Shown here piece by piece: positions 11,386 through 23,626 of a DNA stretch of 64,000 nucleotides. Both the position numbers and the translations under genes were made by a program. This DNA is from an uncultured Candidatus Saccharibacteria bacterium. GTDB taxonomy: Bacteria; Patescibacteriota; Minisyncoccia; Phycocordibacterales; UBA2100. The stretch covers positions 3,345-67,344 of the forward strand of contig CAYRHX010000002.1 in assembly GCA_964424265.1 (NCBI GenBank), given 5' to 3'. Each line of letters opens with the position of its first letter. The first letter of the stretch is position 1. A model generated the notes under the pieces. The model did not search any database. It was given only the letters and a program-made list of their open reading frames with translations, and was not told where the DNA came from.

Positions 11386-11589
11386 GTGGGGGGCGGGTAT
11401 TCCAACCGCGTCCGCGCGACCAAATTCAATCCCACGGGCAAGCGCCGCCGCTTCGTAAACCTCCAGAAAAAGACCCTTTTCATCCCCGAACTCGGCAAGA
11501 AGGTCACCGTAGTGGTATCAGCAAAAGGCTTAAAGACAATGAAGAAACGCGGCGCATTTCTCACGCTCAAGAAGGCGGGGATGATCTAA
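11347..11589 (+). CDS. rpmB: 50S ribosomal protein L28
   Basis: MARVCEITGKKSQVGGGYSNRVRATKFNPTGKRRRFVNLQKK... is canonical L28; the track ORF 11167..11589 over-extends 5'. Confidence 0.85.
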   Translation: MARVCEITGKKSQVGGGYSNRVRATKFNPTGKRRRFVNLQKKTLFIPELGKKVTVVVSAKGLKTMKKRGAFLTLKKAGMI

Positions 11590-12440
11590 ATCTTCTGTAC
11601 GGTTTTGCCGTCGGATACAAACGAGACCGTACCGTCAGTGCACGTGTCTGAAAGCGATATCTGCAGTCGCGCAAACGTGTCGAGTGTTTGCTGGTGCGGA
11701 TGACCGTAGGTGTTGTCACACCCTCGCGAGAGCACACCGTACTCGGGACCAACGAATCCGACGAAGGCAAGTGCCGATGAGGTCTTCGATCCATGGTGTC
11801 CGGCTTTTAACACATCGGACCTTAGCTTCCCGCCGTCCAGAGCGACAAGATACTTTTCGATCGACTGCGGCGCGTCACATGAGAGCATGAAAGCAGTATC
11901 GCCATAGACAAGCCGCGCTACAACACATCCTGTATTCGTCTCGAGGTGCGGTACCAAGCGGTCAGGAAACAATATTTCGAGATACGCACCGCTGCCGAGG
12001 ACGATAATCTGCCCGCGTAACGCCGTCACCTGCCGCGCTTTCTCTTTCGCAATTCTCTCTCCAAGCGTACGCCACATCTGTGTATCACCTTCCACACTCG
12101 ACGTAATCGCCATCCCCACCTCGTACCTATCAAGTACATCAATAAGCCCACCGATATGATCGGCATCGGGATGCGTAGCGATCATTACATCAATACTACG
12201 GTCATACCACGGCATTACATCCGATAGCGCACGCAGCACAGAACTCCCCTTCCCACCGTCGATAAGTACTTGCCGCCCCGACGGGGCATCGATAAATATT
12301 GCGTCACCTTGCCCGACATCAAGAAATGAGACCGTGAGCATTCCACCCCGTTCTCCCCTCAAAACGACATACCAAACACAAGCGGAAATAATAATGAAGA
12401 CAAGGATCGCAATACCTCTTACCTTTGAACTGCGCCGCAT
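11586..12440 (-). CDS. ComEC C-terminal-type metallo-beta-lactamase domain protein (membrane-anchored), separate gene
   Basis: TM helix then LTVSFLDVGQGDAIFIDAPSG...IATHPDADHIGG...KAGHHGSKTSS... is the ComEC/Rec2 lactamase_B domain. Start chosen at MRRSSKVRG; the track ORF extends to 12488. Confidence 0.8.
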   Translation of the reverse strand: MRRSSKVRGIAILVFIIISACVWYVVLRGERGGMLTVSFLDVGQGDAIFIDAPSGRQVLIDGGKGSSVLRALSDVMPWYDRSIDVMIATHPDADHIGGLIDVLDRYEVGMAITSSVEGDTQMWRTLGERIAKEKARQVTALRGQIIVLGSGAYLEILFPDRLVPHLETNTGCVVARLVYGDTAFMLSCDAPQSIEKYLVALDGGKLRSDVLKAGHHGSKTSSALAFVGFVGPEYGVLSRGCDNTYGHPHQQTLDTFARLQISLSDTCTDGTVSFVSDGKTVQKI

Positions 12441-12463
12441 GGAGACAATGATATACTCTCCGC

Positions 12464-13060
12464 ATGCACACATACACTCCAAAAACATTTACCATCTCCG
12501 CACTCGACGGCATCTCTTCGAAATCAATTGAGGAACACTTGGGACTCTACCAAGGCTACGTGAAGAACTTTAATGCTATCTCCAAACAAATCGCGGAGCT
12601 TGCTACGAGTGATGCGGAGAAGTACACGCACGCAATTTCTGAGCTTGTACGTCGGCGCTCGTTTGAATTCGACGGCATGCGATTGCATGAGCTCTACTTT
12701 GCGCAGCTAGAAGGAGGGCCGACGCCACTCACCCAAGGAAGCGCGCTTGAGAAAGTGCTCATGAGCTCCTACGCGCCGTTTACATGCGAGAAAGTGATGA
12801 AGATGATCGGCAGCATGCGCGGGCCCGGCTGGGCAATACTCTATTTCGACCCTGAAGCAAAAGAGCTCCTTACTGGATTTTCTGGAGAACAACACCAAGG
12901 TCACTTCGCTACCCTCCCCATCATCCTCGCACTCGACGTGTGGGAGCACGCGTATCTGCTCGATTATGGCGCGCTCGGCAAGGCAAAATACCTCGACGCA
13001 TTTTTCAAGAATCTGAATTGGGGCGTCATCGAAAGGAGATTTGCTACGGCACAAAAGTAA
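12464..13060 (+). CDS. sodA: Fe/Mn superoxide dismutase
   Basis: ...HELYFAQLEGG...LALDVWEHAYLLDYGALGKAKYLDAFFKNLNW carries the SOD signature DVWEHAYY. Confidence 0.9.
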   Translation: MHTYTPKTFTISALDGISSKSIEEHLGLYQGYVKNFNAISKQIAELATSDAEKYTHAISELVRRRSFEFDGMRLHELYFAQLEGGPTPLTQGSALEKVLMSSYAPFTCEKVMKMIGSMRGPGWAILYFDPEAKELLTGFSGEQHQGHFATLPIILALDVWEHAYLLDYGALGKAKYLDAFFKNLNWGVIERRFATAQK

Positions 13061-13164
13061 CAAACACCAAAGCCCGGTTTCCACAACCAACCCCGCGCCG
13101 CCCTTTCACCCCAGAAAGGTATGGTATTCTGTACCTGTTACACCTTATTTATAATTATTACCTT

Positions 13165-13608
13165 ATGAACCTCGAACGATCATTTCTTATCGGTTTCCTC
13201 GGCAACTACCTGATCAACACTATCGTCGCAGCGATCGTCGCGCTTGCTCCCCGATCGACTACGGGTGGCGTGCTTACCATTCAGTACATACTCTTTGTCG
13301 GCCTCTCCGCAGTCGTGGTCGCAGGACTCGCCAAGTGGTATATGGGTGACGCACCTCGCACCATTAAGAGTGGCGCGCTCTTCGGCGTTATGGGTTTTGT
13401 TGTCGCCGTAGTCACAGCCTTTGTGACGGGTGTCGCCGGAGTCTTGGCTCAAACAGGCTCGTTTTCTGCTGTTGCAGGTGTCTTGCCTAATTTCTGGCCT
13501 TTCATCGCCAACTGGTCGACCCTCTTCCTCGTCGGCTACTGGATAATCCCAGGCGCACTCGTTGGATTCCTCCTCCAACCAAAAAGCGCTCAGCAGCCGA
13601 TGATGTAA
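13165..13608 (+). CDS. Hypothetical integral membrane protein
   Basis: MNLERSFLIGFLGNYLINTIVAAIVA... has several TM segments; the start is uncertain (the track ORF begins at 12940, overlapping sod). Confidence 0.4.
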   Translation: MNLERSFLIGFLGNYLINTIVAAIVALAPRSTTGGVLTIQYILFVGLSAVVVAGLAKWYMGDAPRTIKSGALFGVMGFVVAVVTAFVTGVAGVLAQTGSFSAVAGVLPNFWPFIANWSTLFLVGYWIIPGALVGFLLQPKSAQQPMM

Positions 13609-13628
13609 TCAGCTTCGTACATTGCCAG

Positions 13629-13657
13629 AAAACAGCCGCGCTTGTCGCGGCTGTTTT
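13629..13657. terminator. Bidirectional terminator hairpin AAAACAGCCGCG-cttgt-CGCGGCTGTTTT
   Basis: Seen directly between convergent gene ends. Confidence 0.55.
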
Positions 13658-15138
13658 CATTTACGCAACCACAACCACGCGACGCCCAAGAGTATGTACG
13701 CCCCAAGCATCCACCATGCACTGAAGGCAGGAATCGAGACAGCCGCAAAAGGGAGCGCTGCGAAGGACTGCGCAACGGCGATGATGTACCAAAGCAGTGC
13801 GTACGCTGGCGCCGCGAGAGGAAGCGCATACGAGCCAAACATCATTCCACCCAGTGCCGCAACGAACGACGCGCCCATCGCGTAGGGCACCGCCACGAGT
13901 GCGAGCAGATTGGCGGGCAGTGCAACCAAGGAAAAGAGTCCATTTTGAAAAAGGAGGAGGGGTAAAACTGTGATCTGTGTGGCGACGGTAGACGAGAAAA
14001 TTTCCCGCAAGCCAAATTTTTCTGGCATCCATACGAGTCGCGCTGACAAGGGCTCCGTAAAAAGAATGAGACCGAGTGTTGCGAGTATCGACAACTGGAA
14101 TCCTGGGTCAAAAGCGAGGTACAGCGGATTCCACGCTACCATCCCAAGCGCGACCACACCCAAAATACGGAGAGCTAAGAAGGTGCGCGCCGTCGCACGC
14201 GCGTAGACCGCAATCATGGACATAGCGCCGGCGCGCACCGCGCTCGGAGCTCCGCCCGTCATCAAGACGACAAAAAGCACCGCCGAGGCAATCCCCCCAT
14301 ACTGGACAACTCTGGGAAGAAAGACGAGTCCCCGGCGCACCATGTTGATGACAATAGTGATGTTGTATCCCGAAAGCACCACGACGTGAATGAGAGAAGC
14401 GGTTTTGAACACTTCGGAAAGCTCTTTCCCGATCGAACGTTTGTCACCGACGGTGATTCCCCCCGCAAGTCCTGATTCGGGCTCCGGCAGGACCGCTTGG
14501 AGCCCTGCGAGAAATGTATGCTTCACCGCGATCGCGGATGCTTGCAATATATTGCCGTGATTTTCACCGAGTGATTCCGCCTCGGCGGAGATGAGCATGT
14601 ATCCGATCCCATCTTTTGCGAGAAACATCGGATAATTAAATTGTCGACCCTCGCTCGTACCAAACGATTCGGGTAGTTCGAGGACCCCTTCCACTCGCAC
14701 GGTATCGCCATATGCGATCTTCGTGTGCGCCGGGACCACGGCGAGGATGCCTGTGCGCACGGACACCGACGTACTTCCGACGAGAAGCGCCGTGACGTCG
14801 ACATGTACACGGATGTTGGATTCTCGCACATCAAGGTCACCCACAACCACCCCTTCGACAACGACTTTTGTATTCAAACGCTCATCGAGCACAGAATCCC
14901 CCATCGAGGCCACGCTCGCCACACGCAGCGCACCGAGAGCAAATGCGCACAATGCGATCACAATGAAGATAGAACGACGTACTCCTGATTTCTCAAGCCA
15001 TGAGATGAGCAGCGTGACGAGTGCGAGCAATAAAAGGAAGACGAGCGTGGCAAAGCCGATGAAGAAAAAGGAGCTCACGAAAACGCCGGAAAGAAATCCG
15101 ACGATAACAGCCCACACGATGTGCGTGACCATCGACAC
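13657..15138 (-). CDS. comEC: ComEC/Rec2 N-terminal channel part (DUF4131 + Competence domain), lacks the lactamase domain
   Basis: 493-aa polytopic membrane protein, ...VVLSGYNITIVINMVRRGL...; domain recognition by eye. Confidence 0.75.
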   Translation of the reverse strand: MSMVTHIVWAVIVGFLSGVFVSSFFFIGFATLVFLLLLALVTLLISWLEKSGVRRSIFIVIALCAFALGALRVASVASMGDSVLDERLNTKVVVEGVVVGDLDVRESNIRVHVDVTALLVGSTSVSVRTGILAVVPAHTKIAYGDTVRVEGVLELPESFGTSEGRQFNYPMFLAKDGIGYMLISAEAESLGENHGNILQASAIAVKHTFLAGLQAVLPEPESGLAGGITVGDKRSIGKELSEVFKTASLIHVVVLSGYNITIVINMVRRGLVFLPRVVQYGGIASAVLFVVLMTGGAPSAVRAGAMSMIAVYARATARTFLALRILGVVALGMVAWNPLYLAFDPGFQLSILATLGLILFTEPLSARLVWMPEKFGLREIFSSTVATQITVLPLLLFQNGLFSLVALPANLLALVAVPYAMGASFVAALGGMMFGSYALPLAAPAYALLWYIIAVAQSFAALPFAAVSIPAFSAWWMLGAYILLGVAWLWLRK

Positions 15139-15318: not shown

Positions 15319-15633
15319 CTACAATTTCTTGATATCGAGCTTCTCCAATCGCAGCGCCTTGAACAAGGCGTACACAATGGCAGCAATAATGATGAAGTCT
15401 ATTGCATTGGAGAGAAAGGCTCCGATCTTCACCGATCCGAGTGACCAGCCTGCAAGCGAATCAGCCGATCCGATCAGCGCACCGATAATCGGATTGAGTA
15501 GATCTTGCACAAAAGATGAAACGACCTTCGAAACGGCCGTGCCCAGAATGAATCCTATGGCGAGCCCCATCACGCCCTGTTCCCGTATGAAATTGATGAA
15601 GCCCTGGAATGACCCAACGATATGATCTTGCAT
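15319..15633 (-). CDS. mscL: Large-conductance mechanosensitive channel
   Basis: MQDHIVGSFQGFINFIREQGVMGLAIGFILGTA... is canonical MscL. Confidence 0.85.
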   Translation of the reverse strand: MQDHIVGSFQGFINFIREQGVMGLAIGFILGTAVSKVVSSFVQDLLNPIIGALIGSADSLAGWSLGSVKIGAFLSNAIDFIIIAAIVYALFKALRLEKLDIKKL

Positions 15634-15644
15634 GCTTATTTCTA

Positions 15645-16061
15645 CTATGATTCTTGCGCCTCGTCCATCGCCTCATTCGCGAGTCGATCGGCAACCGTAT
15701 TCTCCTCACGCGGTACGTATACAAATTTGATGCGCAAAAAATCCGCGGAGATCATCGCTCGCACTTTTGCATGCTGCAATTTCAATGCAGGTTCTTTTAT
15801 CTTCCAATGACCTGAGATTTGCTCAACGATAAGTTTGCTGTCGGCACGAACTTCGATCTCACGATCTTCTAAACCCATTTTTTTTGCTTCCCTGAGTGCG
15901 AGCACCACCGCCTCATACTCTGCCCAATTGTTAGTCTGCTCTCCCAAATACTTTTTCACTTCCGCGAGCACGCGCTCCCCCTCTAAAATCACCGCGCCCG
16001 CGCCCGCGGGCCCAGGATTATTTCGAGCGCCGCCGTCGGTGTATATGATTACTTTCGACAC
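15645..16061 (-). CDS. rnhA: Ribonuclease HI
   Basis: IIYTDGGARNNPGPAGAGAVI...NNWAEYEAVVLAL...ENTVADRLANEAMD has the RNase H catalytic residues. Confidence 0.9.
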   Translation of the reverse strand: MSKVIIYTDGGARNNPGPAGAGAVILEGERVLAEVKKYLGEQTNNWAEYEAVVLALREAKKMGLEDREIEVRADSKLIVEQISGHWKIKEPALKLQHAKVRAMISADFLRIKFVYVPREENTVADRLANEAMDEAQES

Positions 16062-19334: not shown

Positions 19335-19742
19335 ATGGAGGACTGTATTTTCTGCAAAATCGTGCGCGGCGAAATACCCTCGTTTAAGGTATACGAGGAT
19401 GCGAATGTGCTGGCCTTTCTCGACATCCATCCCACAAATCCCGGCCACACGCTCGTCGTACCCAAGATACACGCTGAGAATATCTTTGAAATATCATCAG
19501 AATCATGGTCGCAGGTAATGGAGACCGCGCGCAAACTCTCAATCACGATCGAAAACGCGCTCGATGCGAAAGGAATCAACCTCATGATGAACAACCGCGA
19601 GCACGCGGGCCAGGTCGTCGATCATGTACACGTGCACATCGTCCCCCGCTTCACCGGCGACGCACATCGACAGTGGTCGCAGTCATCCTACAAAGACGGC
19701 GAGGCAGAAAAGATCCTTGATAAAATCCGTAAGGGACTCTAA
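19335..19742 (+). CDS. HIT-family (histidine triad) nucleotide hydrolase
   Basis: CIFCKIVRGEIP...HPTNPGHTLVVPK...HVHVHIVPR. Start placed at MEDCIFCKI; the track ORF begins at 19215. Confidence 0.85.
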   Translation: MEDCIFCKIVRGEIPSFKVYEDANVLAFLDIHPTNPGHTLVVPKIHAENIFEISSESWSQVMETARKLSITIENALDAKGINLMMNNREHAGQVVDHVHVHIVPRFTGDAHRQWSQSSYKDGEAEKILDKIRKGL

Positions 19743-22700
19743 AAAGCGACCGGACCAGGACAGGGTCCGTTACTAATCATGGTCGCGCCAGCAGCATTGA
19801 GGTTGCACACGCTTGAGTATGTGACAGGCGGCACGGCTGCACAGGCCACTCCTTGCGGACAAATCCCTCGAGGGGGTGCGCCGCACACCGGCTTATACAA
19901 GTCAGGGCATCTAATGGGGGCTGAGCCGACCTCAACTGTTGCTGTCGCCTTCGCTGTTTTTCCTCCCGAATCACGGACAAGCATTTTCACTGTGTAAGTA
20001 CCCGCACGGGCATAGCTGTGTGTGAACGTCGTTGATTGCGCCACGGCAGCTCCAGGATAGAAGAAGCTAGCGGGGGCGATCCTCGCATACCATTCATCTC
20101 CCCACTCTATTGAATAGGTGAGCGTGCCGTTTTCAGGGTCCGATGCTTGGACTCTCCATGTGCCTGTGGCGCCTACCGCGAGTGTGGTTGGTCCAGAGAA
20201 CGAAGAGATGACGGGAGACTGATTGTCGTCTGAGGATGTAAAGTACGCCCTACAATACGGATCTTGCGTAGGAGATCCTTCTGCCCGGATGCATGCCATC
20301 ATTGTGCACATCGCAGGAGCTCCGGGAGACGATCGGCTGCACGTATTACATCCATCAAACCAGGATTTGCAACGTGGATCCGCTTCGGGATTCGAGGCGG
20401 TAGGGCGACACGCACCTTCGTACGCAAACGTCGCACCATCTGCCCGCATCGCACATGCATTACTGTAGGTCTGCTGGACAGGATTGCACGGTGTCGTGAT
20501 GCATTGCACCTGCTTCGAGCCACAAACCGGATTGTACTCCATCGTACATGCTTGCGGTCCTCCACCCCCACCTTCGCACCATCGCATCATCTGATTACGA
20601 GAGAGTGGGCCGAACATGCCGAGAGCAGGGAGGCCTTGCGACGACTGCCATCTGGAAACTGACTGTGCGGTGACAGATCCGAAGTGGCCCGTGGGGTCGG
20701 TAGTGAAGTATCCCTGTTCTCGCAAGAATTCTTGCAGTCTCCGCACGTCGTCTCCCCAAAGGCCTACTGAGAGATCGCGGTAGAGCGCTTTGCAGATCGG
20801 ATGCTTGGGAGGGACGGGATTGGGGGTTGGCGGTTGTGGAGCCGGTCGACACGCCCCTTCGTATGCAAGCGTCGCGCCATCGGCCTTCATCTTGCACTTG
20901 TTGCCGTATGTCGTCGGCACCGGATCACACGGTGTCGTGATACAAACGATCGGCTTCTTGCCGCAGACGGGTATGTATTCCTCTGTGCATGCGATCGTGA
21001 CTCCGGTATTATTCGCGCAGTTCCCGGCAGTGTCGCGCGTGTAGCCTACAGGTACGCCGATTTGTATATCCTGGATGTTGGCACACGCATCTATTGTCAT
21101 TCCCGTGCATGTCGATGGCCACACTGCGGGACACGGATGAATCGGGCCGATGTGGCAATTTCCGTTGGTCTTGGAATAACCATTGGGTACAACGGCCTGT
21201 GCTCCTAGAATGTTTGGACAGAGATCGGTGATCGAATCTTGCGAGGTGACCGTGATCATCGTGGCGCCTGCCCACACGTCTTGTGTGAAGCTGCCGTTGA
21301 ATTGGTTCACATCAGAAAAGTCGTATATCTTCGCTCGTATTGTGTAGGTGCCTGCCTCTGCGTATGTGTGAATGCCACACGGTGCGTTGCGTCCGTTTTG
21401 CGTGGGATACGTGCCGTCGCCCCAATCAATTGAGAATGTACGGCCGCCAAAGCGGGGCTGATTGTTCGTACACTCTGAAGAAACGAGCGACCTCCATTCT
21501 TCAGGAAAGATAGCCGAGACGGTAAGCGGCGCCTCCCCTGAGGTGGGAGACGCTGAAAATGCCGATATCGGAGGCAAGCACCCAACCCCTCCCACACCTT
21601 CCGCACAAACATGCGGAGCGAGATCAATTATTATAGGGACTGGAACGGGCATTTTATTGTATAGATCTGCCACCTGAGTTTCGGATAGAGCCGTCTTGTA
21701 GTACACGAAGTTTGCCAACGACCCCTTGAAATGATTGATGCCGTTGGGGTAGTAGCCAGGCATATCGTACATGCGACCGATTGAGGGCATCGAATTGTGG
21801 TACCCCCTGTTGTTTGACGCTACGTCGATGGTCTTCACAGGCCGACCATTTAGATACACGGTCGAAGCGCTGCCCGTATTTACCCACGTCATGTGATTCC
21901 AGGTACCTGATATATTCCTCGACAATGGCACTTCGTACTGCCGCGCCGATGCACAACCGCTACCCAAAAGCGAAGATCCATTTTTGTCCGCACGGATAAA
22001 CACCGAATCTGCATCTACCGATAGCACGAGGTCATTTCCGTTGTTGCCATCCGCGTCGGAGAAGATCGTGCCGCAACTCGTACCCATGAAATACACCCAC
22101 GCTCCGATCGTAAATTCGTTTGAATCAGGTACCGGGGTCATCGAAACATACGAGTCAGTGCCATTAAACTGTAGTGGGCCTTTCCATGAGAGGACGGGGG
22201 TGGGTTCGGCAACACTCCCGACCGTGATCGTCGCCGTGCTAATGACCGTATCTTGTACAAGGCCGAGAGAACATGCAATCATGGTGAGAATATTCCCGCT
22301 GCACTTTTCCAAGAGACGCGCCGCGTAGGTGCCGGGACTCGCATACGTATGTGCCTTAAATACCGCGCATTTGTTGGCGAGAAAAGCCTGCTCCGAACAA
22401 CCCATTCCCACATTCAAGGCGAGCGTTGTGCCGTCGCCAAACTCAAGCATGTGCTGCATCGAAGCCTCGCGAGGGATGGTGAAGGTCACGGCAAGTGGAG
22501 CTATGCCCGATGTCGGAGATGCCGTGAACGGTGGGGACACCGACGGTGTCACAACGGGATTGGCAGGAACCTCTGGTCCATTGGACATCACGTACTTAAC
22601 GGCAATACGAACGGTGCTGTCGGAGGCCGTGGTTACATTAAAAGAGCAGATGAGACCGGTGCATCGCACAGGAGTAGTAAACTGGCTCACCGAGCAGGGC

Positions 22701-23626
22701 GTACCGCCGGAGGGAAACGAACACGTTCCTACGCTTTCCGTAAACCTAGGAATATCGATGACGCGAACCGTGTGAACACCTGGATCCACCGACGAAAATG
22801 CCGATGGATTTGATCTCATGTATTTTCCTTGTCCGTCGAGCTGCGCTTCCACTCTTCTTGGGGCCGACTCTGTGGTCATATCTTCGCCCACATGGGTAAC
22901 AGACAAAATCTCTGGTTGCTCAGTGCCAGGCACCATCGGCGTGTACAAAACTACAATGCGCGTAGAGGCTCCTCCGAAAACCTGTATCGGAATGAGGCAA
23001 GTCTTCCCGTCACACAATGGAGAGAAGGGGTATACCGAAACAGAGCAGCGCGTGTCGCCGTTTCTAAATGAGCACGAAGCGACGCGTTCGGCGTATCCGG
23101 AGATATCACGGATCTGTACCACGTGCGACCCCTCAGCGACAGATCCAAAATCTGCAATGTTGCCCGATTTGTTCGAGCCAGAATCGAGCTTCGCTTTGAC
23201 TCCAGAGGGTGGGATCTCGAGCGATCCAATGCCTACGTGTTTCACCGAAATTCTACCGATGCGTGACGTGTCGCTCGGGGCGGGATCCGCTTGCTGGGCG
23301 TTCACGGCAGGTTGACTGTCCGTCCCTCCCGGAGTCCCTGTGGGAGATCCATCACTTGGACCACTTTGGGACGTGCCTTGTGATGCTGATTGGGACGACT
23401 GTGATCCCACCGCGCTATTCGGTGCTCCATCTGGATTTGGATTAGTGCAGCATGCATCTGCTGGCGATACACTATCAGGACCGTCGGGAGAGACGGAGGT
23501 CTCAGAAGGAGATACGCCCGCATCGACACCATCCGCCTCCTCCGCATGTACAATAGATACGTATACAAAAATAGATGCTGCCGCAACGAGGAGACCAATA
23601 AGTGGGAACGCGATTTTTTTGCTCAT
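19739..23626 (-). CDS. Giant secreted multidomain surface protein (1295 aa): signal peptide, Ser/Gly/Pro-rich linker, PKD-like repeats, LamG/concanavalin-like domain, three Kazal-like domains, PG_binding_1-like domain
   Basis: Signal MSKKIAFPLIGLLVAAASIFVYVSIVHA. Kazal-like units EYIPVCGKKPIVCITTPCDPVPTTYGNKCKMKADGATLAYEGAC, EYNPVCGSKQVQCITTPCNPVQQTYSNACAMRADGATFAYEGAC and LYKPVCGAPPRGICPQG...TYSSVCNLNAAGATMISNGPC. PKD-like FGDGT / WGDGTY / IEWGDEWY. LQEFLREQGYFTTDPTGHFGSVTAQSVSRWQ is PG-binding-like. Confidence 0.7.
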   Translation of the reverse strand: MSKKIAFPLIGLLVAAASIFVYVSIVHAEEADGVDAGVSPSETSVSPDGPDSVSPADACCTNPNPDGAPNSAVGSQSSQSASQGTSQSGPSDGSPTGTPGGTDSQPAVNAQQADPAPSDTSRIGRISVKHVGIGSLEIPPSGVKAKLDSGSNKSGNIADFGSVAEGSHVVQIRDISGYAERVASCSFRNGDTRCSVSVYPFSPLCDGKTCLIPIQVFGGASTRIVVLYTPMVPGTEQPEILSVTHVGEDMTTESAPRRVEAQLDGQGKYMRSNPSAFSSVDPGVHTVRVIDIPRFTESVGTCSFPSGGTPCSVSQFTTPVRCTGLICSFNVTTASDSTVRIAVKYVMSNGPEVPANPVVTPSVSPPFTASPTSGIAPLAVTFTIPREASMQHMLEFGDGTTLALNVGMGCSEQAFLANKCAVFKAHTYASPGTYAARLLEKCSGNILTMIACSLGLVQDTVISTATITVGSVAEPTPVLSWKGPLQFNGTDSYVSMTPVPDSNEFTIGAWVYFMGTSCGTIFSDADGNNGNDLVLSVDADSVFIRADKNGSSLLGSGCASARQYEVPLSRNISGTWNHMTWVNTGSASTVYLNGRPVKTIDVASNNRGYHNSMPSIGRMYDMPGYYPNGINHFKGSLANFVYYKTALSETQVADLYNKMPVPVPIIIDLAPHVCAEGVGGVGCLPPISAFSASPTSGEAPLTVSAIFPEEWRSLVSSECTNNQPRFGGRTFSIDWGDGTYPTQNGRNAPCGIHTYAEAGTYTIRAKIYDFSDVNQFNGSFTQDVWAGATMITVTSQDSITDLCPNILGAQAVVPNGYSKTNGNCHIGPIHPCPAVWPSTCTGMTIDACANIQDIQIGVPVGYTRDTAGNCANNTGVTIACTEEYIPVCGKKPIVCITTPCDPVPTTYGNKCKMKADGATLAYEGACRPAPQPPTPNPVPPKHPICKALYRDLSVGLWGDDVRRLQEFLREQGYFTTDPTGHFGSVTAQSVSRWQSSQGLPALGMFGPLSRNQMMRWCEGGGGGPQACTMEYNPVCGSKQVQCITTPCNPVQQTYSNACAMRADGATFAYEGACRPTASNPEADPRCKSWFDGCNTCSRSSPGAPAMCTMMACIRAEGSPTQDPYCRAYFTSSDDNQSPVISSFSGPTTLAVGATGTWRVQASDPENGTLTYSIEWGDEWYARIAPASFFYPGAAVAQSTTFTHSYARAGTYTVKMLVRDSGGKTAKATATVEVGSAPIRCPDLYKPVCGAPPRGICPQGVACAAVPPVTYSSVCNLNAAGATMISNGPCPGPVAF

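What the first reader, a model, noticed from the sequence alone, without database searches (positions are those of the whole stretch)
11586..15138. ComEC split into two separately encoded parts separated by sod and a membrane-protein gene
The competence channel ComEC normally is one polypeptide (DUF4131-Competence-Lactamase_B). Here the channel part (13657-15138) and a membrane-anchored metallo-beta-lactamase part (11586-12440) are distinct same-strand genes. They are interrupted by two opposite-strand genes (superoxide dismutase, hypothetical membrane protein) and a bidirectional terminator. Either this is a functional split (nuclease delivered in trans) or a rearrangement disrupted comEC. 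Together with pilB/pilC/pilins and comM it defines the DNA-uptake capacity of this organism.
Basis: partly seen in the sequence, partly recalled or inferred. Interest (0 to 1): 0.55.

Follow-up and report, generated by a model that had tools for sequence, protein, structure and literature searches.

The report
ComEC naturally split into two genes
In this ultra-small (Patescibacteria) bacterium and its whole class, the DNA-uptake protein ComEC is made from two separate genes, a membrane channel and a membrane-anchored DNA-cutting enzyme, with an unrelated superoxide dismutase gene wedged between them. This is an old, conserved arrangement and not a broken gene.

Summary
13657-15138(-) encodes the ComEC channel half (DUF4131/OB fold plus a complete Competence domain). 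11586-12440(-) encodes one transmembrane helix plus a ComEC-type metallo-beta-lactamase nuclease. Aligned to a solved full-length ComEC, the halves cover residues 9-494 and 512-789 of 801. The break therefore lies in the cytoplasmic TM10-TM11 loop and no segment is missing. All catalytic residues are kept.

It is not a recent disruption or an assembly error:
- The same layout occurs in three independent assemblies of this organism.
- It occurs in 32 of 39 species-level relatives (Kaiserbacteria, Nomurabacteria, Parcubacteria, Paceibacterota). None has a fused gene.
- sod lies on the opposite strand between the halves in those 32. In the simplest loci it is the only gene there.
- The halves co-evolve (r=0.82), and the nuclease is the better conserved.
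- The nearest fused ComECs are from Chloroflexota.

Best reading: a two-subunit ComEC whose nuclease, anchored by its own TM11-like helix, works beside the channel. The two halves are separate transcription units. Physical assembly is inferred, not shown.

It was already reported that CPR ComEC lacks the MBL fusion. I found no description of the separately encoded syntenic nuclease or of the sod wedge. Verdict: new variant of a known system, moderate interest.

The parts
13657..15138 (-). ComEC channel half: three N-terminal TM helices, OB fold (DUF4131), and the Competence domain up to the TM10 equivalent. 493 aa, ending ...WLWLRK*.
   Evidence: Pfam DUF4131 at 5e-22; Competence at 4.8e-40 covering 2-268/270. 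Aligns to full-length ComEC 30bt_A residues 9-494. 120 closest homologues are all 485-540 aa with the same two domains.
11586..12440 (-). ComEC nuclease half: short basic N-terminus (MRRSSKVRG), one TM helix equivalent to ComEC TM11, then a metallo-beta-lactamase nuclease domain. 284 aa.
   Evidence: TIGR00361 positions 417-663 at 2e-30. PDB ComEC 30bt_A residues 512-789 at E 1.4e-30 and 9ic4 at E 8e-30. H90-x-D92-x-D94-H95, D189 and H215-H216-G-S218 are conserved in 42 homologues. The MBL part of the AF2 model matches 9ic4 with TM-score 0.84.
12441..12463 (.). 23-bp divergent intergenic region between the nuclease gene and sod. It carries a conserved AGTATATCAT element (minus-strand reading). 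Candidate back-to-back -10 boxes.
   Evidence: Sequence read directly. The same motif sits at the same place in relatives L007, L010-L014, L018 and L023. It is not a general motif of the window. The promoter function is inferred.
12464..13060 (+). Fe/Mn superoxide dismutase gene lying between the two ComEC halves on the opposite strand. It is a conserved part of the arrangement, not a ComEC component.
   Evidence: Pfam Sod_Fe_C at 2e-16. PDB Fe-SOD 1wb8 at E 1.4e-24, with the metal ligands aligned. It lies between the halves in 32 of 39 related species loci.
13165..13608 (+). 147-aa multi-pass membrane protein of unknown family. A lineage-specific extra gene between sod and the channel gene.
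   Evidence: No Pfam or NCBIfam hit. 82% identical to a 147-aa gene in the same position in relative L004. Absent from the minimal loci, where only sod fits between the halves.
13628..13658 (.). Bidirectional intrinsic-terminator-like hairpin (13-bp perfect stem, 5-nt loop, A-run and U-run flanks) between the convergent membrane-protein and channel genes. It overlaps the stop codon of the channel gene.
   Evidence: Sequence. Fold energies of -22.7 and -24.0 kcal/mol, z -4.3 and -4.6.

Best explanation
This is a naturally split, functional ComEC. One gene makes the DNA-binding OB fold plus the membrane channel. A second gene, transcribed separately, makes the strand-degrading nuclease as a single-pass membrane protein with its N-terminus in the cytoplasm and its catalytic domain outside.

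The break lies in the cytoplasmic loop between the last two transmembrane helices of canonical ComEC (TM10 and TM11). The nuclease therefore keeps its own TM11-like anchor. I infer that it sits next to the channel entrance in the membrane, positioned by lateral helix packing and by the small OB-fold/nuclease contact seen in full-length structures. There it would degrade the non-transported strand while the other strand enters.

The arrangement most likely arose once, in an ancestor of the Paceibacteria (Parcubacteria) lineage of Patescibacteria. The likeliest route is a fission in which a reverse-oriented sod gene came to lie inside comEC. It has been kept by selection since.

Shown: homology of both halves, completeness, intact active site, conservation, co-inheritance and separate transcription-unit layout.

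Inferred: physical association, nuclease activity, and the direction of the evolutionary event (fission).
For: 1. Completeness. The N half aligns to residues 9-494 and the C half to residues 512-789 of the 801-residue solved ComEC 30bt_A. The Pfam Competence domain is complete.
2. ComEC identity of the MBL. All six PDB matches are ComEC, and the top NCBIfam hits are the C-terminal thirds of the ComEC models.
3. Active site. H-x-D-x-D-H, D189 and HHGS are invariant or nearly so in 42 stand-alone homologues. They correspond to the residues shown to be essential in PMC12455585.
4. Conservation. More than 7,500 homologues were found, and the top 120 are all about 284 aa. About 140 of the 150 best 50%-identity cluster representatives are stand-alone. 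The top 120 channel homologues all lack an MBL.
5. Synteny. 32 of 39 species loci show channel(+), sod(-), nuclease(+). None is fused. In eight loci only sod fits in the 560-700 bp gap.
6. Co-inheritance. Pairwise identities of the two halves correlate at r=0.82, against a permutation maximum of 0.27.
7. Structural plausibility. The concatenated halves model as one ComEC-like protein with mean pLDDT 93 and pTM 0.71, and the nuclease's N-terminal helix is placed as TM11. In the cryo-EM structure TM10 and TM11 are peripheral, TM11 is mobile, and the nuclease domain is tethered flexibly and oriented only by a small OB-fold contact (PMC13539106).
8. Topology. The nuclease starts MRRSSKVRG (basic) before its helix, and the channel half ends ...LRK. 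This places both ends of the break on the cytoplasmic side.
9. Independent assemblies agree.
Against: - No experiment or chain-chain prediction shows that the two proteins bind. The AF2 model was a forced single chain, and its alignment contained fused homologues, so it shows compatibility only. pLDDT is lowest (63-81) around the junction and TM11.
- In vitro, ComEC nuclease activity is higher when the OB fold is on the same polypeptide (PMC12455585). A split could therefore cost activity unless the two halves assemble.
- The halves are in different transcription units, with a terminator after the channel gene and the nuclease sharing a divergent region with sod.
- In at least two relatives (L035, L042) no channel gene lies within about 7 kb upstream of the nuclease.
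- The direction of the event (fission or retained pre-fusion state) is not resolved. An NJ tree shows only one clean split between fused and stand-alone forms.
- The rest of this genome was not available to exclude a second comEC.
Confidence: 0.75

Rival explanations
1. The nuclease half no longer works as part of ComEC. It acts as a free-standing membrane-anchored surface nuclease, analogous to EndA of Streptococcus pneumoniae. It would cut environmental or host DNA for uptake or nucleotide scavenging without docking on the channel.
For: The two genes are in separate transcription units, and the nuclease shares a conserved 23-bp divergent region with sod. In L035 and L042 the nuclease gene is not near a channel gene. 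The nuclease is better conserved than the channel, with mean pairwise identity 49% against 39%. CPR bacteria lack nucleotide synthesis and are thought to scavenge DNA (PMC6744442). A nuclease acting in trans has a precedent in S. pneumoniae (PMC12455585).
Against: Channel-sod-nuclease synteny is retained in 32 of 39 species across deep divergence. The TM11-like helix is retained and aligns with ComEC TM11. The two halves co-evolve. In a Saccharibacterium, comEC was dispensable for growth, which argues against a feeding role there (PMC10633639).
Confidence: 0.18
2. The two-gene state is ancestral. ComEC began as a channel plus a separate membrane nuclease, these fused in other bacteria, and Patescibacteria retain the pre-fusion arrangement.
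For: Published ancestral-state reconstruction favours a Competence-only ancestor with later domain gains (PMC6299819). [quoted passage not shown] The NJ tree of the nuclease domain has a single bipartition between 24 fused and about 178 stand-alone sequences, which fits one event in either direction. Stand-alone ComEC-like TM-MBL proteins also exist in two Clostridia MAGs.
Against: The closest fused relatives (44% identity) are from Chloroflexota, and fused forms are widespread across distant phyla (PMC6299819). A reverse-oriented sod exactly at the former linker, with the two halves co-oriented, looks like an insertional fission. The tree is unrooted and sampling was biased toward the query.
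Confidence: 0.1
3. A recent rearrangement or an assembly error disrupted a normal comEC, so that one or both halves are pseudogenes.
For: Opposite-strand genes and a terminator lie between the halves, which on a single genome could suggest disruption.
Against: The arrangement is identical in three independent assemblies. Both reading frames are intact in 32 species. The active site is conserved, and the nuclease is 63-76% identical across relatives. No relative carries a fused version.
Confidence: 0.02
4. The MBL gene is an unrelated paralogous hydrolase that happens to lie near a ComEC lacking its nuclease domain.
For: Pfam sees only a generic Lactamase_B domain at 3.6e-09, and NCBI names the relatives 'MBL fold metallo-hydrolase'.
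Against: The best family and structure matches are all ComEC C-termini, and they include the preceding TM helix. It carries the ComEC-specific H-x-D-x-D-H variant of the motif. Synteny and co-evolution link it to the channel gene.
Confidence: 0.03

Closest known systems
Canonical single-chain ComEC/Rec2 (DUF4131-Competence-Lactamase_B; e.g. Bacillus subtilis ComEC, and the Neomoorella carbonis ComEC cryo-EM structure 30bt)
   Same: It has the same three modules in the same order, the same topology, a complete Competence domain, and the same nuclease motif H-x-D-x-D-H / D / HHGS. The TM helix before the nuclease is retained.
   Different: It is encoded by two genes cut in the TM10-TM11 loop. 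The two genes are 1.2 kb apart, with sod and a membrane-protein gene on the other strand and a terminator between them, so they are separate transcription units.
ComEC forms without an MBL domain ('DC' profile of Pimentel & Zhang 2018, PMC6299819; CPR ComEC family of Meheust et al. 2019, PMC6744442)
   Same: The channel gene on its own has exactly this DC architecture. The absence of the fusion in CPR genomes is already published.
   Different: Those papers treat the MBL as lost or never gained. Here a ComEC-type MBL with its own anchor is encoded nearby and co-inherited, so the domain is relocated to a second polypeptide and not missing.
Streptococcus pneumoniae ComEC plus EndA (nuclease supplied by a separate membrane protein)
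   Same: The strand-degrading nuclease is a separate membrane-bound protein acting with the ComEC channel (PMC12455585).
   Different: EndA is not an MBL-fold protein (my own knowledge; not tested here) and is not derived from ComEC. Here the trans-acting nuclease is the ComEC domain itself.
Naturally split polytopic membrane proteins produced by gene fission (e.g. split Doa10, PMC3464245; insertional fission of cox2, PMC5374615)
   Same: A multi-pass membrane protein is divided at a loop into complementary genes whose products are thought to reassemble. For cox2, the fission is by insertion (titles and abstracts).
   Different: These are eukaryotic or organellar examples. They were listed by a literature search only, and I did not read them in detail.

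Membership tests
ComEC/Rec2 (TIGR00361; Pfam DUF4131 + Competence + Lactamase_B) | Complete Competence (PF03772) transmembrane channel domain | tested here: met
   4.8e-40, 138 bits against a cut-off of 23, model positions 2-268/270 in the 493-aa protein.
ComEC/Rec2 (TIGR00361; Pfam DUF4131 + Competence + Lactamase_B) | N-terminal DUF4131 / OB fold | tested here: met
   PF13567 at 5e-22, 78.8 bits against a cut-off of 31.6. Beta-strands at residues 91-193 in the AF2 model.
ComEC/Rec2 (TIGR00361; Pfam DUF4131 + Competence + Lactamase_B) | ComEC-type MBL nuclease domain with catalytic H-x-D-x-D-H, D and HHGS, preceded by a TM helix | tested here: met
   TIGR00361 positions 417-663 at 2e-30. PDB ComEC E 1.4e-30, residues 512-789. 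Residues conserved in 42 homologues. TM-score 0.84 to 9ic4.
ComEC/Rec2 (TIGR00361; Pfam DUF4131 + Competence + Lactamase_B) | All modules on one polypeptide; whole-protein score above the equivalog cut-off (190 bits) | tested here: not met
   Two ORFs separated by 1,216 bp and two opposite-strand genes. The halves score 57.1 and 105.6 bits, both below 190.05.
ComEC/Rec2 (TIGR00361; Pfam DUF4131 + Competence + Lactamase_B) | Required for DNA import; Mn-dependent degradation of the non-transported strand | not testable with these tools
   Needs genetics or biochemistry. Only a Saccharibacterium comEC has been tested in CPR (PMC10633639).
Two-subunit (heteromeric) ComEC, as proposed here | Physical association of the channel protein and the nuclease protein | tested here: inconclusive
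   A forced single-chain AF2 model is confident (pLDDT 93, pTM 0.71) but was guided by fused homologues. Co-evolution r=0.82 is compatible but also expected from shared vertical descent.
Fe/Mn superoxide dismutase (intervening gene) | Sod_Fe_C and Sod_Fe_N domains with the four metal ligands | tested here: met
   Sod_Fe_C at 2e-16. Sod_Fe_N reaches only 21.4 bits, below the cut-off of 27. Full-length match to Fe-SOD 1wb8 at E 1.4e-24. By my reading of that alignment, His25, the His of 'MRLHELY', and the D and H of 'DVWEHAY' align with conserved residues.

The most novel reading that the evidence does not exclude
Splitting the nuclease from the channel has made it an independently regulated module. 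The nuclease gene shares a conserved 23-bp back-to-back (possibly leaderless) promoter region with sod, while the channel gene is terminated separately. The cell could therefore vary the nuclease:channel ratio. That would let it switch between destructive DNA 'feeding' at the surface and strand-preserving transformation, possibly tied to oxidative conditions.
Probability: 0.2. Interest if true: 0.65.

Novelty: new variant of a known kind. Interest (0 to 1): 0.5.

Why it matters
ComEC is the universal gateway for transforming DNA, and its first full-length structures date only from 2025-2026. [quoted passage not shown] In vitro work reports higher nuclease activity when the OB fold is on the same polypeptide.

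A whole class of bacteria that has kept the nuclease on a separate polypeptide for a very long time is a natural experiment on that question. It predicts that ComEC cut in the TM10-TM11 loop still works. It also gives a soluble or easily tagged nuclease subunit for interaction studies.

There is a practical consequence too. Surveys that score ComEC domain 'loss' from single-protein architectures (including the statement that CPR lack the MBL fusion) undercount nuclease-competent systems. Annotation of these genomes as 'MBL fold metallo-hydrolase' hides half of the DNA-uptake machine.

The finding bears on how Patescibacteria, which depend on external nucleotides and are naturally transformable, process DNA at their surface.

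Tried and rejected
- AF2 on the concatenated halves without an alignment gave an unusable model (pLDDT 40).
- Block alignments containing only window and P-id rows were misaligned by MAFFT: the N-only rows showed only 20-30% identity to the query (A2, A4). This was solved by adding fused Chloroflexota ComECs as guide rows (A5).
- My first query for the 147-aa membrane protein was one base out of frame (start 13166 instead of 13165). The 'MEMB' rows should be ignored. The correct comparison is.
- Cluster look-ups to obtain taxonomy for distant stand-alone nucleases returned almost no names.
- The two Clostridia stand-alone homologues have no competence genes nearby, so they say nothing about a wider split.
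- Text searches for any paper describing a split or separately encoded ComEC nuclease found none. The library is incomplete, so this is absence of evidence only.
- The AGTATATCAT element is not a general promoter motif of the window.


Full report
**What is there.**
- On the minus strand, 13657-15138 encodes a 493-aa protein with DUF4131 (5e-22) and a complete Competence domain (4.8e-40, model positions 2-268 of 270).
- Also on the minus strand, 11586-12440 encodes a 284-aa protein. [quoted passage not shown]
- Between them on the plus strand lie a Fe/Mn superoxide dismutase (12464-13060) and a 147-aa membrane protein with no family match. Its start is 13165, not 13166 as I first used.
- A perfect 13-bp hairpin with A- and U-runs on either side lies at 13628-13658. 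It overlaps the stop codon of the channel gene and folds at -22.7/-24.0 kcal/mol on the two strands.
- Composition is smooth across both junctions, and there are no Ns or frame breaks.

**Is the MBL gene really the missing part of ComEC?** Yes.
- NCBIfam places it on positions 417-663 of the 663-position ComEC_Rec2 model (2e-30) and on 470-735 of PRK11539. The channel protein occupies positions 112-356 of ComEC_Rec2.
- Against the PDB, all six matches of the 284-aa protein are ComEC. The best is the full-length ComEC 30bt_A (E 1.4e-30), with query residues 11-279 aligned to chain residues 512-789.
- The channel protein aligns to residues 9-494 of the same chain.
- Together the two products tile 801-residue ComEC, leaving only about 17 residues uncovered.
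- The cryo-EM paper (PMC13539106) describes a short cytoplasmic helix, CH1, between TM10 and TM11, which corresponds to this uncovered stretch. TM10 and TM11 are peripheral to the channel, and TM11 is mobile enough to be missing in one protomer. The nuclease domain is said to be held by a flexible linker and oriented by a small contact with the OB fold.
- The cut is therefore at the structurally most tolerant place. The nuclease keeps TM11 as its own N-in signal anchor: MRRSSKVRG, then IAILVFIIISACVWYVVL.

**Active site.** Stedman et al. (PMC12455585) showed that H598-x-D600-x-D602-H603 and D700 are needed for nuclease activity, and that H725 and S728 contribute to substrate binding. In the alignment to their crystal construct 9ic4 these correspond to H90, D92, D94, H95, D189, H215 and S218 here. 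In an alignment of 42 stand-alone homologues extracted from related loci, all are invariant except D92, which is conserved in at least 80%.

**Conservation and synteny.**
- A search of 5.8 billion proteins with the nuclease half returned more than 7,500 hits. The best 120 are all 265-320 aa and 62-76% identical. Where named, they come from Kaiserbacteria, Uhrbacteria, Paceibacterota or 'Patescibacteria group'.
- The channel half returned 120 best hits of 485-540 aa, all DUF4131+Competence without an MBL.
- An exhaustive phmmer scan of 1.84 billion 50%-identity representatives gave 51,176 hits. Of the best 150, about 140 are stand-alone (about 270-310 aa) and only two are full-length fused ComECs.
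- The exact protein occurs on contigs from three different samples with the same neighbours. Relatives at 76% and 67% identity show the same order: MscL, channel, variable small genes, sod(-), nuclease(+), L28(-), M50 protease.
- A scan of one genome per GTDB species gave 41 loci. I mapped the window's proteins onto them.
- Of 39 Patescibacteria loci, 32 have channel(+), sod(-), nuclease(+). One (Yonathbacteria, L037) has channel and nuclease without sod. Two (L035, L042) have no channel gene within about 7 kb upstream. Four have too little upstream sequence to judge. None has an open frame joining the two halves.
- In eight loci the space between the channel stop and the nuclease start is only 560-700 bp and is filled by sod alone. 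The 147-aa membrane gene of this window is therefore a later addition in the Kaiserbacteria branch (82% identical in L004).
- Pairwise identities of the two halves across 31 species correlate at r=0.82 (maximum of 500 label permutations 0.27). The nuclease is the better conserved half, at 49% against 39% mean identity.

**Origin.** The closest fused ComEC, P0352 (818 aa, 44% identical over the nuclease part), and its relatives are from Chloroflexota (Promineifilum, Anaerolineae). A neighbour-joining tree of the nuclease region put all 24 fused sequences on one side of a single branch and about 178 stand-alone ones on the other. That means one event, but the tree is unrooted and the sampling biased. 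I favour fission by a reverse-oriented sod landing in the linker for three reasons:
- fused ComEC is widespread in distant phyla;
- the two halves are co-oriented and flank sod exactly;
- the anchor helix is homologous to TM11.

The alternative, a retained pre-fusion state, is not excluded.

**Structure check.**
- A single-sequence AF2 run of the concatenated halves failed (pLDDT 40).
- An alignment of the concatenate with 35 fused Chloroflexota ComECs, 54 channel-only and 58 nuclease-only homologues (A5) gave a model with mean pLDDT 93.0 and pTM 0.71.
- The model has three N-terminal helices, a beta-rich OB region (residues 91-193) and a long helical bundle. The nuclease's first helix (model residues 500-521) follows the last helix of the channel half (474-493). 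Confidence dips to 63-81 only around that junction.
- Foldseek finds the ComEC nuclease crystal structure 9ic4 as the top hit (TM-score 0.84 on the target, rmsd 2.6 Å).
- Full-length ComEC entries were not in the fold library, and the other libraries were offline.
- The model shows that the halves are compatible with a canonical ComEC fold. It does not prove that the two separate chains bind.

**Transcription layout.** The channel gene ends in the bidirectional hairpin. The nuclease gene starts 23 bp from the divergent sod start. That 23-bp spacer contains AGTATATCAT (minus-strand reading). Variants of the element recur at the same place in relatives (L007, L010-L014, L018, L023), but it is not a common motif in the window. 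Its two strands offer TATCAT 7 nt before the nuclease ATG and TATACT 6 nt before the sod ATG. That would fit back-to-back promoters for leaderless mRNAs, which is an inference only. The generic promoter scan found nothing significant.

**Literature.**
- Pimentel & Zhang 2018 (PMC6299819) catalogued ComEC domain profiles and interpreted the differences as gains and losses.
- Meheust et al. [quoted passage not shown]
- Wang et al. 2023 (PMC10633639) showed that comEC is required for natural transformation, and is not essential for growth, in a Saccharibacterium.
- None of these, nor the 2025-2026 structural papers, nor phrase searches, mention a separately encoded ComEC-type nuclease or the sod insertion.
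- Some pipelines (JGI) already label both genes 'competence protein ComEC'.

**Verdict.** The 'functional split' reading is supported and the 'disrupted gene' reading rejected. The arrangement is a clade-wide, two-gene variant of ComEC. Whether the nuclease docks on the channel (my preferred reading) or acts as an independent surface nuclease remains open.

**Context.** PilB, PilC, pseudopilins, ComM and RecJ lie in the same window. This fits an active DNA-uptake apparatus.

Noticed in passing
window 12441-12463: The 23-bp spacer between the divergent nuclease and sod start codons carries a conserved AGTATATCAT element, with variants at the same place in at least eight related species. Its two strands give -10-like hexamers 7 and 6 nt from the two ATGs. 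This suggests back-to-back promoters for leaderless mRNAs.
   Followed up: partly
window 12464-13060 and loci L007-L044: sod sits on the opposite strand between the two ComEC halves in 32 of 39 related species, and in eight of them it is the only gene there. Nothing explains why this particular gene is fixed at this spot. A link between a Mn/Fe enzyme and a Mn-dependent nuclease is pure speculation.
   Followed up: partly
L045 6974-7927 and L046 617-1471: Two Clostridia MAGs encode stand-alone, ComEC-like TM+MBL proteins (32-33% identity to the window's nuclease). The neighbours in L045 (GDSL lipase, RCC1 repeats, GNAT, FGGY kinase) are unrelated to competence.
   Followed up: partly
protein cluster P0283 (721 aa; members P0391, P0393, P0394): These proteins have the ComEC-type MBL at the N-terminus (residues 45-291) followed by about 430 further residues, including a second matched stretch. 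This is an unexplored architecture of the same nuclease.
   Followed up: no
L035 and L042 (related loci): The stand-alone nuclease gene is present, but no channel gene or sod lies within about 7 kb upstream. In some lineages the two halves have become unlinked.
   Followed up: partly
window 19739-23626 (-): A 1,295-aa predicted surface protein combines LamG/concanavalin-like, peptidoglycan-binding, Kazal/pacifastin-like inhibitor and PKD domains. It could be a host-interaction protein of an epibiotic bacterium.
   Followed up: no
window 15319-16061 (-) and related loci: The block MscL, RNase H, a DUF975-like membrane protein and RecJ lies upstream of the channel gene. It is conserved in the Kaiserbacteria relatives (L001, L004, L006).
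   Followed up: no
window 12464-13060: The SOD is divergent. Pfam Sod_Fe_N scores below its cut-off (21.4 against 27 bits), and the usual 'KHH' segment after the first ligand His reads 'GLYQGY'. The four metal ligands still align.
   Followed up: partly
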